Shown: positions 2,514 through 7,567 of the stretch, one piece after another | Layout: each line of letters begins with the position of its first letter | Position numbering within the stretch: the stretch's first letter is position 1 | Source: Candidatus Midichloriaceae bacterium | GTDB lineage: Bacteria > Pseudomonadota > Alphaproteobacteria > Rickettsiales > Midichloriaceae | Direction: 5' to 3' | Assembly: GCA_044229535.1 (NCBI GenBank) | Contig: JBGASU010000001.1 | Location: forward strand, 1,406,969-1,470,968 | DNA: 64,000 nt | Made by a program: the position numbers and the translations under genes | The notes under the pieces: generated by a model | The model's database searches: none | What the model saw: only the letters and a program-made list of their open reading frames with translations | What the model was told of the DNA's origin: nothing

Positions 2514-3059
2514 ATGGATCATTCAAACCCAAATAAAATTTACGGTACTACCATTCTGTGCGTTAGAAAAGGCAAAGAAGTGGTAATAGCAGGGGATGGG
2601 CAAGTAAGCCTAGGTCACACTGTGCTAAAATCCACTGCTAATAAATTAAGAAGGCTTGCAAGCGGAGAAATAGTTGCTGGTTTTGCAGGGTCTACAGCAG
2701 ACGCATTCACTTTATTTGAAAGACTAGAAGCAAAGCTTGAAAAACATCCTAAGCAACTAGTGAGAGCTGCGGTTGAATTAGCCAAAGACTGGAGAACAGA
2801 TAAGTATCTGCGTCGTCTCGAAGCTATGATGATTGTTGCAAATAAAGATAGTACTCTAATTATTACGGGAATGGGTGATGTGATCGAGCCAGAAGATGGT
2901 GTAGCAGCGATCGGTTCGGGTGGTAATTACGCGTTAGCAGCAGCAAGAGCGTTAATTGATCAAAAACTAAGCGCTGAAGAAATAGTGAAGAAAGCTATGA
3001 AAATTGCTTCGGATATATGTGTTTATACAAATAATAATTTAAAAGTGGAGAGCTTATGA
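2514..3059 (+). CDS. hslV: ATP-dependent protease subunit HslV
   Basis: 181 aa. N-terminal [23 protein letters not shown] carries the catalytic Thr. [14 protein letters not shown] is typical of HslV. Confidence 0.93.
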
Positions 3060-3664
3060 GTGGCGATAGATATCTAAAAATTTTAGAAGATGTAGGTGCG
3101 GTTTTAACAGGCCATTTTGTATTATCAAATGGTATTCATAGTGAGAAGTATGTCCAGTGTTCTAGATTTACTAGATATCCAAATATAACGGCGGAATTAG
3201 TTGCTGGGTTAGTAGATAAATTGAAAAATACTTTGCCAAACATTGAATTTGATTTGATAGTTTCTCCAGCGATTGGCGGTATAGTTTTAGGTTATGAGCT
3301 TGGTAGGCAGCTTAATAAAATGGCCATTTATTCAGAGCGTGTTGACGGCAAAATGACTTTTCGTAGAACCTTTGAAATACCTAAAAATGCTAATCGTGTA
3401 TTGCTTGTTGAAGATGTGATTTCAAGTGGCAAAGCGTCAGTGGATACATATAATTGCATTAAAGAGCATGGTGGCGAAGTGGTAGCCCAAGTAGCACTTA
3501 TAAATAGGCATGATAGAGAGTATAACCCTCCATTCCCACTTGTGAATTTGGTGGATATAAGTGTGAGAACTTATGAAGAAAATCAGGTTCCAGAATGGTT
3601 AGCAAAGATCCCTATAGAACGACCTGGTAGTGGTTGGATGAGCAAAAGCAAAGTTGCTGTTTGA
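3056..3664 (+). CDS. pyrE: Orotate phosphoribosyltransferase-like type I PRTase
   Basis: 202 aa. PRPP-binding motif [15 protein letters not shown]-terminal [17 protein letters not shown] resembles the alphaproteobacterial PyrE type. ATGA overlap with the hslV stop. Confidence 0.7.
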
Positions 3665-3673
3665 GATATTGCT

Positions 3674-4134
3674 CTAAAGTGATGTTAGGCTGGGGTTTTG
3701 TCTTGGAGAGTGCTCAGCATCATGATCCATTTTCCAACGAAGCGCCAATGCAGATATAGCAATGGTGCACACTACACCTATTCCTAAGAGCGTCTTAGCT
3801 TCAATCAACCCCATATGTGTATAGGCAAACCCAGTTGCAAGAGTGCTGCTAGCTAGAGTGATGAAATAACTGTGAGTATGATGTGGATTTTTTCTGACTT
3901 CTCTGTCTCCGTTTTACAGAATAGATCTCTTGTCTGTTTTGCAATCAAGGGAAGTACACTAAAGAAAGAGATAGCTCCTAATAATCCAGTTGTAGAATCA
4001 ATAGCGGCTCCAAAACTATGTGATTGTTGCAGTATCATTTGATATGCAAAAATTGGGGTGACGATTCCTGAAATAAAACTGCTAACGTGAATCGCTGCAT
4101 CATTCATAATTGAGCTTGGGTATTGTAAGACCAT
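3674..4134 (-). pseudogene. 4-TM membrane protein, fourth copy of a tandem paralog family, interrupted by a frameshift in an A6 run
   Basis: ATG at 4134 is preceded by AAGGAA. The frame of track ORF 3853..4209 stops at TAG 3855-3853, but another frame continues ...NPHHTHSYFITLASSTLATGFAYTHMGLIEAKTLLGIGVVCTIAISALALRWKMDHD... to TAG 3676-3674. That continuation aligns with the C-terminal halves of the upstream paralogs. The frames can be joined at the A6 run (T6 on the plus strand, 3888-3893). Confidence 0.65.
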
Positions 4135-4150
4135 AAAATATTCCTTTGTG

Positions 4151-5059
4151 TTATATTGGTTGCAATTCACTAGCAATGCCTGTTCCATCTGTACGCCTAG
4201 TTCTATCATGCATGAATTTTACTAATGAAATAAAAGAGGTGAATGTTGCTAACGCGCCGACTGAGATGCTTATTCTAATGTCTATTTCTTTTGTTGCGCC
4301 GTAAATAATACAATTTGAAAGAGTACTTAAGGATAATGCAGAACAAAAGCGATACCAGCCTGATTCAATTGACTTTTTGGCGAATTCTGGAGATTCTTCG
4401 CCCCAGCAACATTTGCAGAAACTTTGAGTTAATAGCGCTGGAACTCCCAAAATTGAAGATGGTAAAATTGCAGTGGTAAAAGTAAAATTAATCAGCCAAT
4501 TTTCTGAGGGAAATATATTCGTTGCCGCGCCAAAACAGAGAAATGGAGTTGTGATCCCAGAGGCAATACTAAGTACGTTTAGCAGAGTAGGATTAACAAA
4601 ATTTCGTGCTGGTGAATCATCAAAAACTATTTGTTGCGGATTGGAATCGCGACCTTTAAGCCAATGATAGCTTATAACCAAACTCATGGCTGAAACTAAG
4701 CTCAAAGCAAAAAGTGAAATACCAGTCGCAACACGATTATAATCCATTGAGGCATAAATTGTCCCACTTCCCATAATACCTGTCATTACACCAGTGCTGA
4801 ACATTATCCAAGAATATCTTAGATCTTCTTGAGGTTCGTTATTTGGTGAGAAAATTTTTTTAATTTGCCTGTAAAACAACAATGCACCAGTCGCACTGCT
4901 AATTCCCAAAATGGGATTGAAGGCGAGCATAACTGAAAGATTATTGGACTCAAAGAATCCTGCAGAAGTCCCAAAAATCAATCCAGTAATGCATGCGCCA
5001 GAAATTAAGCTTGTTCTTTGGGTGATTGAAGCATCAAAATCATTGATGTATTGTACCAT
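4151..5059 (-). CDS. Membrane protein made of two copies of the ~150-aa 4-TM module
   Basis: 302 aa. Halves 1-148 and 149-302 resemble each other and ORF 5065..5511, e.g. INFTF..., FCKCCWGEESPEFAKKSIESGWYRFCSALSLSTLSNCIIYGATKE versus FQKCKQKDTNGKQSIDVSKGWFSLAIATSTTAIASSIYYCATQ. GAGG lies 5 nt upstream of the ATG. Confidence 0.7.
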   Translation of the reverse strand: MVQYINDFDASITQRTSLISGACITGLIFGTSAGFFESNNLSVMLAFNPILGISSATGALLFYRQIKKIFSPNNEPQEDLRYSWIMFSTGVMTGIMGSGTIYASMDYNRVATGISLFALSLVSAMSLVISYHWLKGRDSNPQQIVFDDSPARNFVNPTLLNVLSIASGITTPFLCFGAATNIFPSENWLINFTFTTAILPSSILGVPALLTQSFCKCCWGEESPEFAKKSIESGWYRFCSALSLSTLSNCIIYGATKEIDIRISISVGALATFTSFISLVKFMHDRTRRTDGTGIASELQPI

Positions 5060-5064
5060 TTACC

Positions 5065-5511
5065 TCAAGCGAGTGAATTGGATAGCGGCTGTCTTATTCT
5101 ATCCATATACATTCTCATCGCGCAAGCAGTTATTACCATGCCACTCAAAGTTGAGGTTGCTATGGCAACTTCATTATTAATTACTTGTGTCGCGCAATAA
5201 TAAATTGAGCTTGCAATTGCAGTAGTCGATGTTGCAATTGCTAGACTAAACCAACCTTTACTTACATCAATAGATTGCTTCCCATTAGTATCTTTTTGTT
5301 TGCATTTTTGAAACGTTGCAGCCAATAGAGGAATCATAGTAGCTAAACCAAATGCGCTAAAGAAAGTGAAATTCATTATTTCACGAACATCTGGATTCAA
5401 GAGTGTCTTAAAAGCAAGCACTGTATACATTGTCCCCGATATTGCGCTTGCAGCGCATAGTGCAGCGGTCTTATATAATGGTGCATAAGAAAAAGTTGGG
5501 ATTTGTTTCAT
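5065..5511 (-). CDS. 4-TM membrane protein, single module of the tandem family
   Basis: 148 aa and hydrophobic. Its ATG lies 1 nt after the stop of the upstream histidine kinase (TAA-C-ATG), implying co-transcription. Confidence 0.7.
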   Translation of the reverse strand: MKQIPTFSYAPLYKTAALCAASAISGTMYTVLAFKTLLNPDVREIMNFTFFSAFGLATMIPLLAATFQKCKQKDTNGKQSIDVSKGWFSLAIATSTTAIASSIYYCATQVINNEVAIATSTLSGMVITACAMRMYMDRIRQPLSNSLA

Positions 5512-5512
5512 G

Positions 5513-7366
5513 TTACTCCTCTAAAGTTCTATAACTTGGGAAAGTAACCGTAAATGTTGTGCCTTTTTCAGGCGTGCTTTTTACAGTGATATTTCCTTCA
5601 TGGGCTAATGCACATTCTTTTGCATAGGCTAATCCAATTCCATAACCTATTGCTCGAGATGTTTCTTTATTTTTTAGTCTAGTGAATTTTTTAAATATCT
5701 TTTCCAGATCTTCTTTTGCAATACCTATTCCTGTATCGGCAACTTGTAAGACTATTTGATTTTTAGAATTTTTATTTGCTTCTATATCGATGGCGCCATC
5801 TTGCTTATTATATTTAGCAGCATTCGATGCTAAATTTTGTATTAGTTGGCCAATCATCATTTCGTCACCTAGTATTTTTAGGTTTTGTTCGACATTTATG
5901 CTGATTTTAATGTTTCTGTCTTTTGCATGATGACGAATCATACTGATATTCCATTCTATCAATTCTTTGACATCTAAATGTTTTTCTTCGATATGCTTTC
6001 TTGCTTCTTGAAATTTAAATAGGCGCAAAAAGAAGTTGAGCTGCTTATTTTGGTAAATTGATGTTTTATGAATAATATCTGCAAATTCTTTTAGCTCGTC
6101 GTCTTTGTATTTATCTACTTTTTTTACTAATAGTTGTGCAAAGCCAATTATACTAGAAATGGGGTTAATAAGTTCGTGGCTTAAGAATGACATGTTGCTT
6201 TTAATGAAGGCATTTGCTTGCTCAAGATCTTGATTCGCTTTACCAAGTTGGCTTTGTTTGATTCTGAGATTCTTAGTGGTGTTTGCAATATTCGCAAGTT
6301 GTAGTGATAAAGTATTTAGCTCATTTGCTTTATATGAAGGTACCCTTACATTCTTACCTTTTGATATATTATCTGCAGCTTGTCCTAGTTCTATAATAGG
6401 CTTTATTACTTGGTAACCTAAGAAAAGTAATATCGAAGTAAAAATCACCCCTAATGTGATATACATTATAACTTTTGGGAGTAATTCTTCTTTCAGCTCT
6501 TGATAATATAAGTGTTTATTCTGTCCTATAAACAGGCTGAATGGGTATTTGCTCGAATGCGTTATGTGCGTGTAGATATATTGTTGGGCATCTACAGGTT
6601 TGGATAGTTCATTAACGTCTATATCATGATCGTGTAAAAGTATCTCTTTAATCTGATCTGAAAACAGAAAATTATCTTGATTTAAAACGGGTTCTGACGA
6701 AGTTATAAAGTTTAATTCATCATCATAAATCACAAAGCTTATTTCGTCATTGCTGGCTTGTAAAAGTCGTGTAGTTAGCTTTTCAATGCTAATTCCTGCT
6801 GATAGATATCCTATAAATTTTTCGTTATTTTTATCGTTTATTCCAACAGCACTTGGCAAAATATAATCTCCGGAGGAGAGGCCTATATCAGGCTTGGAAA
6901 ATTGCATAGCCCATGGGTGTGTCCTAGATTTTTCAATCCAACTTCTTTTGGCGTAATTCAGTTTTATAGGCGTCACAAATCCGTTGATGCTATCTGCGAT
7001 TAATAAGCCGTCAGGTCGAGCAAAGTGTATGGCATGCCAAGCGAAGGAGTCATCTTTGAAATTGTCATGATGATGCCTTACGAGTTCAGCTATAGATTTA
7101 TCACTTAGATCCGTATTATTACTAATTTTTGTACCTAAAAACTGCAATAGATGCTCTATGAGCTTTAGTTTGTCATCGAAGTCATTTACGAGTTTTTGTC
7201 CTTCTTTTTCAATAAATATGCGCTTGTCTTCTCTATAGGAATGATAGGTTGAAAAGGATATCCATATTGTGATTATCAATATTAAAGATATCACAGCTAC
7301 GGTAAAATATAGATACTGTTGAGCTAGTGAGTGTTGTCGTGATCGCAATGATTCTAAAATCCACAT
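5513..7366 (-). CDS. Sensor histidine kinase (TM - extracytoplasmic sensor - TM - HAMP-like - HisKA - HATPase)
   Basis: 617 aa. H-box FLSHELINPISSIIGF, N-box NLASNAAKYN, G1 DTGIGI, G2 GYGIGLAYA. Two TM segments flank a ~270-aa extracytoplasmic domain. No adjacent response regulator. Confidence 0.9.
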   Translation of the reverse strand: MWILESLRSRQHSLAQQYLYFTVAVISLILIITIWISFSTYHSYREDKRIFIEKEGQKLVNDFDDKLKLIEHLLQFLGTKISNNTDLSDKSIAELVRHHHDNFKDDSFAWHAIHFARPDGLLIADSINGFVTPIKLNYAKRSWIEKSRTHPWAMQFSKPDIGLSSGDYILPSAVGINDKNNEKFIGYLSAGISIEKLTTRLLQASNDEISFVIYDDELNFITSSEPVLNQDNFLFSDQIKEILLHDHDIDVNELSKPVDAQQYIYTHITHSSKYPFSLFIGQNKHLYYQELKEELLPKVIMYITLGVIFTSILLFLGYQVIKPIIELGQAADNISKGKNVRVPSYKANELNTLSLQLANIANTTKNLRIKQSQLGKANQDLEQANAFIKSNMSFLSHELINPISSIIGFAQLLVKKVDKYKDDELKEFADIIHKTSIYQNKQLNFFLRLFKFQEARKHIEEKHLDVKELIEWNISMIRHHAKDRNIKISINVEQNLKILGDEMMIGQLIQNLASNAAKYNKQDGAIDIEANKNSKNQIVLQVADTGIGIAKEDLEKIFKKFTRLKNKETSRAIGYGIGLAYAKECALAHEGNITVKSTPEKGTTFTVTFPSYRTLEE

Positions 7367-7492
7367 AGGAAATTCTAATTGAATTAGATAATTGGTAACA
7401 AAATTTATTGAAGTTGCAAACTTATATTTTTTCTAAAATAGCAAAACTTTCTTGTAGCATTTTATAAAAACTGTGTTATAAGTCTTTATCAT

Positions 7493-7567
7493 TCCTCGGT
7501 AGCTCAGTGGTAGAGCAAGCGGCTGTTAACCGCTCGGTCGCTGGTTCGAGTCCGGCCCGAGGAGCCA
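7493..7567 (+). tRNA. tRNA-Asn (anticodon GTT), CCA encoded
   Basis: Hand-folded cloverleaf: acceptor TCCTCGG/CCGAGGA, D arm GCTC-AGTGGTA-GAGC, anticodon arm AGCGG-CTGTTAA-CCGCT, T arm GCTGG-TTCGAGT-CCGGC, discriminator G, then CCA. Confidence 0.93.

What the first reader, a model, noticed from the sequence alone, without database searches (positions are those of the whole stretch)
3674..7366. An orphan sensor kinase is co-transcribed with a tandem array of four ~150-aa 4-TM paralog modules
The histidine kinase (5513-7366) has no adjacent response regulator. Three tightly coupled genes follow it, with 1-nt and 5-nt gaps to the first two and a 16-nt gap before the third. Together they encode four copies of one ~150-aa, four-helix membrane module: one copy in 5065-5511, two fused copies in 4151-5059, and one in 3674-4134. 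Recurrent features are the (I/L)NFTF helix, a basic loop F-x-K-C-x, and W(F/Y)-x-(L/F)-x-(I/S)-A-x-S-T followed by IYY/IIY. I do not recognise the family. The kinase-plus-paralog-array architecture could represent accessory sensor, transport or anchor components of an undescribed signalling module.
Basis: partly seen in the sequence, partly recalled or inferred. Interest (0 to 1): 0.6.

Follow-up and report, generated by a model that had tools for sequence, protein, structure and literature searches.

The report
Kinase operon with orphan 4-helix membrane paralogs
In a Midichloriaceae (Rickettsiales) endosymbiont, a sensor kinase with no adjacent response regulator is always followed by one to three genes for a small four-helix membrane protein found nowhere else, probably lineage-specific membrane helpers of the kinase, but their function is untested.

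Summary
On the minus strand, a complete sensor histidine kinase (5513-7366) is followed at gaps of 1, 5 and 16 nt by three genes for ~150-aa four-helix membrane modules.

- **Copies:** three modules (gene A, the C-terminal half of gene B, gene C) are clearly paralogous. The N-terminal half of B is only a marginal fourth copy.
- **Broken gene:** gene C (3674-4134) is not one open frame. It shifts frame at an A6 run (3888-3893). Relatives carry it intact.
- **Distribution:** no Pfam, NCBIfam, PDB-sequence or fold match. A profile search of 1.84 billion proteins returned only the family itself. It occurs in one genus of 28 Midichloriaceae genera searched, plus metagenomic kin.
- **Linkage:** in all nine informative loci, including single-module lineages only 23-25% identical, the module sits directly after this kinase while outer flanks differ.
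- **Other genera:** kinase orthologues there (31-52% identity) lack it.
- **Evolution:** the modules are under purifying selection but change far faster than the kinase. Copies B and C were lost in one lineage.

Best reading (about 45%): SaeQ-like intramembrane auxiliary partners of the kinase. A kinase-independent membrane role or host-directed membrane proteins remain open. Moderate interest.

The parts
5513..7366 (-). Sensor histidine kinase, 617 aa. It has two TM helices flanking a ~270-aa periplasmic Cache-like domain, then HAMP, HisKA (H-box SHELINP) and HATPase_c.
   Evidence: ORF. Pfam: HATPase_c 7.7e-27, HisKA 9.9e-8, dCache_1 8.4e-6 (below cut-off), HAMP 0.07. Below cut-off for every NCBIfam equivalog; best are PnpS and PhoR. 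Orthologues of 85-90% identity in sister lineages and 31-52% in other genera.
5065..5511 (-). Module gene A, 148 aa, four helices. This copy is retained in every lineage.
   Evidence: ORF. Starts 1 nt after the kinase stop, with GGAG upstream. Homologues are 59-74% identical. AF2 gives four helices at pLDDT 64. The single module of G001 groups with the A copies.
4151..5059 (-). Gene B, 302 aa, two modules fused head to tail. The N-half (4616-5059) is a marginal copy and the C-half (4151-4615) is a clear copy.
   Evidence: ORF. The C-half scores 61 bits and the N-half 11 bits against a profile without B rows. Eight long helices in the low-confidence model. No extra TM helix in the linker, and both halves show the same charge bias.
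3853..4134 (-). Gene C, 5' part (93-aa frame, helices 1-2), ending at a premature stop after the frameshift.
   Evidence: Matches profile positions 1-80, E = 2e-25.
3674..3913 (-). Gene C, 3' part (helices 3-4) in a different reading frame.
   Evidence: Matches profile positions 78-143, E = 3.6e-19. Aligns with intact 151-154-aa orthologues.
3888..3893 (-). A6 homopolymer at which the two frames of gene C change over.
   Evidence: Sequence. Whether this is a real mutation or an assembly error could not be tested. The truncated product is on record only from this genome.
7367..7492 (-). Upstream region of the kinase, with conserved blocks including a promoter-like TTGTTA-N18-TAGAAT just before the ATG. 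No Shine-Dalgarno motif precedes the kinase.
   Evidence: Consensus scan (the count is not above shuffles). Six-lineage alignment shows conserved blocks GTTTGTTAC and TCTA(A/G)TTCAA.
7493..7567 (+). tRNA-Asn(GUU), the divergently oriented upstream neighbour, conserved in all six close lineages. It marks the 5' border of the block.
   Evidence: ARAGORN and alignment.

Best explanation
The block is a genus-restricted operon of a Midichloriaceae endosymbiont. A conserved periplasm-sensing histidine kinase was joined, in the ancestor of this genus-level clade, by a new small inner-membrane protein. That protein has four helices, both ends and a Lys/Cys-rich middle loop in the cytoplasm, and almost nothing exposed to the periplasm. 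I propose that these modules pack as parallel dimers beside the kinase's own two transmembrane helices. There they would tune its output, either the kinase/phosphatase balance or its stability, as the unrelated 4-TM protein SaeQ does for SaeS in Staphylococcus.

In one sub-clade the gene was triplicated and two copies fused, giving A, B (two modules) and C. A is the indispensable copy. B and C are accessory: both were lost in one lineage, and C is frameshifted in this genome.

Shown: gene order, tight spacing, own ribosome-binding sites, paralogy, exclusive linkage to this kinase, purifying selection, predicted topology.

Inferred: co-transcription, physical contact with the kinase, effect on signalling, dimeric state. 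The response regulator served by the kinase is unknown.
For: - **Exclusive linkage.** Every family member with readable context lies directly after this kinase: the window, G001, G002/L007, L008, L011/L012, L013, L014/L015, L065, L066/L067. This includes single-module lineages whose module is only 23-25% identical while the kinase is 74-76% identical.
- **No copies elsewhere.** None is found elsewhere in this genome. None is found among 1.84 billion representative proteins.
- **Flanks vary, the block does not.** The downstream neighbour is trmB in most lineages, a convergent PRTase gene in the window and mltA in L011. Genes beyond the conserved upstream tRNA-Asn also differ.
- **Tight coupling.** Gaps are 1, 5 and 16 nt, each with an SD-like motif. 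In L066 the stop TAA abuts the ATG.
- **Real genes.** dN/dS is 0.11-0.37.
- **Topology.** K+R counts are 6-8 on the N-terminus, middle loop and C-terminus against 0-2 on the two short loops, in all copies. All modules are therefore N-in/C-in and parallel.
- **Helix make-up.** Module helices are weakly hydrophobic and rich in Ser/Thr/Gly (mean KD 0.2-1.9, against 2.0-2.1 for the kinase's TM helices). This suits helix-helix packing.
- **Fusion.** B has no extra linker helix, which argues that two modules work side by side.
- **Precedent.** SaeQ is 157 aa with four TM helices and is encoded in the kinase operon. It forms a complex with SaeS, activates its phosphatase and protects a SaeS variant from degradation (PMC5083920).
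Against: - Kinase orthologues in five other genera (31-52% identity) work without any 4-TM gene downstream, so the module is not integral to the kinase.
- The modules evolve 10-30 times faster at non-synonymous sites than the kinase. Between L013 and L014 the kinase is 99% identical, while A is 67%, B 77% and C 81%. This is unexpected for a tight partner of a nearly invariant surface.
- Adjacency may persist simply because the gene was born there and few rearrangements have occurred.
- No interaction, expression or structural evidence exists. AF2 models are poor (pLDDT 64 and 34).
- No sequence homology to SaeQ or to any accessory protein has been shown.
Confidence: 0.45

Rival explanations
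1. The modules have a membrane job of their own, such as a small dimeric channel, transporter or envelope-maintenance protein. They only share a transcript with the kinase. At most they would report flux to it, as transporter co-sensors do.
For: - An 8-TM fused form sits beside single 4-TM forms, a pattern typical of small dimeric transporters.
- Polar Ser/Thr/Asn residues are conserved inside the helices.
- One member gave a weak EamA hit, E = 0.0056.
- Kinase orthologues function without the modules.
Against: - No significant match to any transporter family, by sequence or fold.
- No conserved charged residue lies within the helices. The only invariant acidic residue, D137, follows helix 4 on the cytoplasmic side.
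- The family is never found away from this kinase.
- Fast evolution and repeated loss of copies are unusual for a housekeeping transporter.
Confidence: 0.22
2. The modules are host-directed membrane proteins of the endosymbiont. They would be exported and inserted into a host or vacuolar membrane, with expression tied to the kinase.
For: - The family is lineage-restricted, evolves fast, was tandemly duplicated, and has copies lost or frameshifted. This is the usual pattern of host-interaction genes in intracellular bacteria.
- Helix hydrophobicity is unusually low; helix 3 has mean KD 0.2-1.1. From general knowledge, this is a trait reported for secreted transmembrane effectors.
- A conserved Cys lies in a basic juxtamembrane loop. 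In a eukaryotic membrane this could be lipidated (speculation).
Against: - No secretion signal or eukaryote-like domain was found.
- dN/dS is well below 1.
- Translational coupling to a housekeeping-type kinase and strict adjacency are not typical of effectors.
- No experimental data exist.
Confidence: 0.1
3. The modules are young, largely dispensable orphan ORFs that arose between the kinase gene and trmB. They are carried along without a specific function.
For: - The family is restricted to one genus-level clade with no detectable ancestor.
- B and C were lost in G001, and C is broken in the window.
- Structure models have low confidence.
Against: - At least one copy is kept in all nine loci, across divergence down to 23% identity.
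- dN/dS is 0.11-0.37.
- Motifs (SxxSG, loop Cys, D137) and topology are conserved.
- Ribosome-binding sites are maintained.
Confidence: 0.08

Closest known systems
SaeQ, auxiliary membrane protein of the SaeRS two-component system of Staphylococcus aureus (with SaeP)
   Same: It is about 150 aa with four predicted TM helices and is encoded in the same operon as the sensor kinase. It is dispensable for kinase activation but forms a membrane complex with the kinase, switches on its phosphatase and stabilises a SaeS variant (PMC5083920). Here too the kinase exists without the module in other genera.
   Different: - No sequence relationship has been shown, and SaeQ could not be compared directly.
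- The sae operon includes the response regulator and a lipoprotein partner, SaeP. This block has neither.
- SaeS is an intramembrane-sensing kinase with a 9-residue linker. This kinase has a large periplasmic Cache-like domain.
- Here the module is multiplied and fused.
Small single-pass or few-pass modulators of sensor kinases (MgrB/PhoQ, SafA/PhoQ, MzrA/EnvZ, ScrA/SaeS, LiaF/LiaS)
   Same: These are membrane proteins that act on a kinase through its transmembrane or juxtamembrane parts. They are often lineage-specific and fast evolving (general knowledge; ScrA: PMC12239555, title and abstract).
   Different: Those have one TM helix, or other folds in the case of LiaF. Most are encoded away from the kinase and are themselves regulated by it. 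No homology was found.
Small dimeric 4-TM transporters (SMR/EmrE type) and their paired or fused derivatives
   Same: The module has four helices and occurs as singletons, neighbouring paralogues and a fused two-module gene.
   Different: - No Pfam match.
- No conserved membrane-embedded acidic residue.
- All copies have the same N-in/C-in charge bias rather than opposite or dual topology.
Classical two-component operon (kinase plus response regulator)
   Same: The kinase has a complete HisKA/HATPase_c core, with the HExxN motif typical of bifunctional kinases.
   Different: No regulator gene is adjacent in any of the lineages examined. PhoB-like and OmpR-like regulators of the genome do not share the kinase's distribution.

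Membership tests
HisKA-type sensor histidine kinase | HisKA dimerisation/phospho-acceptor domain with the conserved His, plus an HATPase_c catalytic domain | tested here: met
   PF00512 at 32.4 bits (cut-off 26.9) and PF02518 at 94.4 bits (cut-off 26.4). The H-box SHELINP is visible in the translation.
PhoR / PnpS phosphate-sensor kinases (best NCBIfam similarity) | Score above the curated equivalog cut-off | tested here: not met
   PnpS 164.8 bits against cut-off 400. phoR_proteo 139.5 bits against 334.2. Only the catalytic half aligns.
Cache-domain sensor | Periplasmic dCache_1 domain above the Pfam gathering score | tested here: inconclusive
   PF02743 at 25.9 bits against cut-off 45, E = 8.4e-6, residues 62-207. 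The precomputed hit is listed without a 'weak' mark for orthologues in L007, L013 and L014.
SaeQ-like kinase auxiliary membrane protein (functional class) | Small 4-TM protein encoded in the kinase operon | tested here: met
   Linkage holds in nine loci.
SaeQ-like kinase auxiliary membrane protein (functional class) | Sequence homology to SaeQ | not tested
   No SaeQ sequence was on hand. The Pfam, NCBIfam and PDB searches gave no hit of any kind.
SaeQ-like kinase auxiliary membrane protein (functional class) | Physical complex with the kinase and an effect on its phosphatase, kinase activity or stability | not testable with these tools
   Needs experiments.
SMR / dual-topology small transporters | Pfam Multi_Drug_Res match and a conserved membrane-embedded Glu | tested here: not met
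   No such hit. No invariant charged residue lies within the helices.
SMR / dual-topology small transporters | Weak or opposite K+R bias between paired copies (antiparallel dimer) | tested here: not met
   All 22 modules analysed show the same N-in/C-in bias.
   Three units are clearly related. The N-half of B scores only 11-19 bits, just above background.

The most novel reading that the evidence does not exclude
A membrane protein family born within one endosymbiont genus has become an obligatory, rapidly diversifying intramembrane co-sensor. It would give an otherwise conserved kinase a lineage-specific (host-specific) input, for example through the conserved cytoplasmic Cys loop. Alternatively, it is a kinase-coupled family of host-membrane-targeted proteins. 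Either way it would be a signalling accessory with no described homologue.
Probability: 0.15. Interest if true: 0.65.

Novelty: new variant of a known kind. Interest (0 to 1): 0.4.

Why it matters
Two-component kinases of Rickettsiales are few and poorly understood, and what they sense inside host cells is largely unknown. A clade-specific membrane partner welded to one of them would show how a conserved kinase acquires new inputs in an obligate endosymbiont. It would also add an alphaproteobacterial example to the small set of multi-pass kinase modulators such as SaeQ. The locus further gives a clean small-scale record of gene birth, triplication, fusion and decay. Without experiments it remains a well-delimited hypothetical protein family of narrow distribution.

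Tried and rejected
- **Known families.** Pfam and NCBIfam scans of all module ORFs, and of all 14 aligned members, gave nothing significant.
- **Solved structures.** The profile against PDB sequences gave a best E of 0.21. Foldseek of the AF2 model of A against PDB gave no hit with E <= 0.001, only generic helical bundles.
- **AF2 of gene B.** With five sequences the model reached pLDDT 34 and is unusable beyond its helices.
- **Cognate regulator by phyletic pattern.** The PhoB-like regulator (window ~35.2 kb) is in 20 of 24 family genomes and the OmpR-like one in 13 of 24. Neither mirrors the kinase, which is in 9 of 24 at E <= 1e-20.
- **Hidden divergent modules.** I looked downstream of kinase orthologues in G009, G012, G022, G017 and G037. 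Those neighbours are rpoH, rpoZ, soluble ORFs and one protein with a C-terminal TM hairpin.
- **Promoter and terminator scan.** Counts were not above shuffled expectation.
- **Initial taxon guess.** My first guess of a Legionellales/Rickettsiella origin was wrong. Record titles of same-genus genomes say Candidatus Midichloriaceae.
Full report
**1. What is in the sequence**

On the minus strand of 3674-7366 there are four consecutive coding units.

- The kinase occupies 5513-7366 (617 aa).
- Gene A occupies 5065-5511 (148 aa) and starts 1 nt after the kinase stop.
- Gene B occupies 4151-5059 (302 aa) and starts 5 nt after A.
- A third gene has its ATG at 4134, 16 nt after B.

Each of the three small genes is preceded by a Shine-Dalgarno-like motif (GGAG, GAGG, AAGGA).

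The third gene is not intact. The interval 3674-4134 is 461 nt. The frame from ATG 4134 stops at 3853 (93 aa). The last two helices are encoded in another frame, 3674-3913. The family profile matches the two pieces as positions 1-80 and 78-143. The change-over is at the A6 run 3888-3893. Orthologues of 151-154 aa are intact in five related lineages. The truncated product is on record only from this genome.

**2. Organism and surroundings**

The window lies in a 1.60-Mb genome made of a 1.54-Mb and a 59-kb contig. Same-genus genomes are titled 'uncultured Candidatus Midichloriaceae bacterium', so this is a Rickettsiales endosymbiont.

- Downstream, and convergent, are hslV and a phosphoribosyltransferase gene, with argS further on.
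- Upstream, and divergent, is tRNA-Asn (7493-7567), followed by a 1182-aa ankyrin-repeat gene.
- No receiver domain lies near the kinase. The nearest is a PhoB-like regulator at about window 35.2 kb.
- Most kinases and regulators of this genome are unlinked, so an unpaired kinase is not exceptional here.

**3. The kinase**

It has a full HisKA/HATPase_c core and weak dCache_1 and HAMP matches. It stays below cut-off for every curated kinase equivalog.

Orthologues are 85-90% identical in sister lineages. They are 74-76% identical in two metagenomic single-module lineages. In other genera, including a Jidaibacter MAG, they are 31-52% identical.

**4. The modules**

*Paralogy.* Profile-profile comparison shows that A, C and the C-half of B are paralogous (E = 8e-12, 2.5e-10 and 3e-5). 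The N-half of B is marginal.

- hhalign gives E = 0.002-0.23.
- Against a profile built without any B rows it scores 11.2 bits in this genome and up to 19.1 bits in orthologues.
- For comparison, the best unrelated ORF of the whole genome scores 9.7 bits and the best of 1000 shuffles scores 7.3 bits.
- It aligns collinearly and keeps the SxxSG, F, W and IY(A/G) positions.
- I therefore count three secure copies and one probable copy.

NFTF occurs in A and the B C-half. The loop Cys occurs in A, the B C-half, C and the single-module forms, but not in the B N-half.

*Structure and topology.* AF2 of A with a 14-sequence alignment gives four long helices at low confidence (pLDDT 64). AF2 of B failed (pLDDT 34).

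- Charge counts put the N-terminus, the 17-22-residue middle loop and the C-terminus in the cytoplasm in all 22 modules analysed.
- The two outer loops are only 4-7 residues long.
- The helices are weakly hydrophobic and rich in Ser, Thr and Gly. Their mean KD is 0.2-1.9, against 2.0-2.1 for the kinase's TM helices.

**5. Is it a known family?**

No. Pfam, NCBIfam, PDB sequences and Foldseek against PDB all gave nothing significant.

A profile search of 1.84 billion representative proteins returned nine hits. Seven are the family itself and two are weak hits to large, apparently unrelated proteins. In 47 genomes of 28 Midichloriaceae genera the family is found only in the window's genus. There is no copy elsewhere in this genome.

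**6. Linkage to the kinase**

Every member with readable context sits directly after this kinase.

- Three-gene form (A, fused B, C): the window, G002/L007, L008, L011/L012, L013 and L014/L015.
- Single-gene form: G001, L065 and L066/L067.

The tRNA-Asn upstream is conserved in the six close lineages, but the outer flanks differ. The downstream neighbour is trmB in most lineages, a PRTase gene in the window and mltA in L011.

Kinase orthologues of other genera are followed by unrelated genes and no small 4-TM ORF. At 74-76% kinase identity the module is already down to 23-25% identity. A very divergent homologue elsewhere in those genomes therefore cannot be excluded. It is not, however, next to the kinase.

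**7. History and selection**

A kinase tree places the two single-module metagenomic lineages outside a clade of six. Inside that clade G001 (one module) is sister to L007 (three genes) with 99/98 support.

- Its module groups with the A copies.
- The simplest history is one ancestral module, then triplication with fusion, then loss of B and C in G001 and a frameshift of C in the window.
- The root is a midpoint root only.

dN/dS is 0.11-0.37 for the modules and about 0.02 for the kinase. Between L013 and L014 the kinase is 99% identical, while A, B and C are 67%, 77% and 81% identical. The modules are thus constrained but evolve much faster than the kinase.

**8. Most likely mechanism**

I favour (about 0.45) auxiliary inner-membrane partners that sit beside the kinase's transmembrane helices, probably as parallel dimers. 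The fused gene B suggests that two modules act side by side. They would modulate kinase output or stability.

The closest functional precedent is SaeQ, a 157-aa 4-TM protein of the sae operon. It complexes with SaeS, turns on its phosphatase activity and protects a SaeS variant from degradation (PMC5083920). This is an analogy, not a shown homology.

Points against this reading:

- The kinase works without the modules in other genera.
- The large rate difference between modules and kinase is unexpected for tight partners.
- No direct evidence of any kind exists.

The rivals are:

- an independent small membrane transporter or channel that merely shares the transcript (about 0.22);
- host-directed membrane proteins, suggested by the fast, duplicative, decaying evolution and low helix hydrophobicity (about 0.10);
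- near-functionless young ORFs (about 0.08), disfavoured by retention and purifying selection.

**9. The response regulator**

It could not be assigned. PhoB-like and OmpR-like regulators have wider or different distributions than the kinase.

**10. Verdict**

The architecture is real and conserved within a narrow clade. The family is undescribed, and the interpretation as a signalling accessory is plausible but untested.

- the third gene is broken in this genome;
- the fourth copy is marginal;
- the array is a derived, partly dispensable elaboration of a kinase-plus-one-module unit.

Earlier notes of this scan on the same window had already flagged the frameshift (e1-3089301) and the Midichloriaceae origin with the tRNA-Asn neighbour (e1-3089297). 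I re-checked both here.

Noticed in passing
window 2514-3664: hslV (Proteasome family) overlaps the start of a phosphoribosyltransferase gene rather than being followed by hslU. The PRTase stop (3664) lies only 9 nt from the convergent end of module gene C (3674), which leaves no room for separate terminators.
   Followed up: partly
L020 3443-4213 (G009, another Midichloriaceae genus): The gene after the kinase orthologue encodes a 256-aa protein with no Pfam hit. By eye its N-terminal part looks like tandem ubiquitin-like repeats, and it ends in a Ser-rich two-helix membrane hairpin. It is a possible host-directed protein.
   Followed up: no
window 7367-7492 and relatives: The tRNA-Asn to kinase intergenic region keeps conserved blocks in six lineages, among them AAAATGCTACAGGAAAGTTT, GTTTGTTAC and a near-palindrome TCTAATTCAATTAGA next to the start codon. 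The kinase ATG has no Shine-Dalgarno motif. This suggests a very short or absent leader and perhaps an operator.
   Followed up: partly
G000:C2:1517002-1517295 and G000:C2:32086-32397: Two other HATPase_c-containing frames of this genome carry an in-frame stop (one TAA, one TGA) in the search output. These are possible kinase pseudogenes, which would show that gene decay is ongoing in this genome.
   Followed up: no
HK versus module genes, pairwise comparisons: Synonymous divergence of the kinase is saturated or not computable in most pairs. The adjacent module genes give dS of 0.7-1.9 for the same pairs. The kinase is also more AT-rich (32-35% GC against 37-40%). Codon or composition effects, or exchange of the module genes between lineages, were not resolved.
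   Followed up: no
L011 1620-2759: In one related lineage a Fic-domain protein gene lies just upstream of the kinase block.
   Followed up: no
G000:C2:1216704-1218500: This is a second kinase of the same length and overall architecture (642-aa frame, 23% identity over residues 18-615). It exists in this genome and in the same-genus genomes G001 and G002, and is not followed by modules.
   Followed up: no
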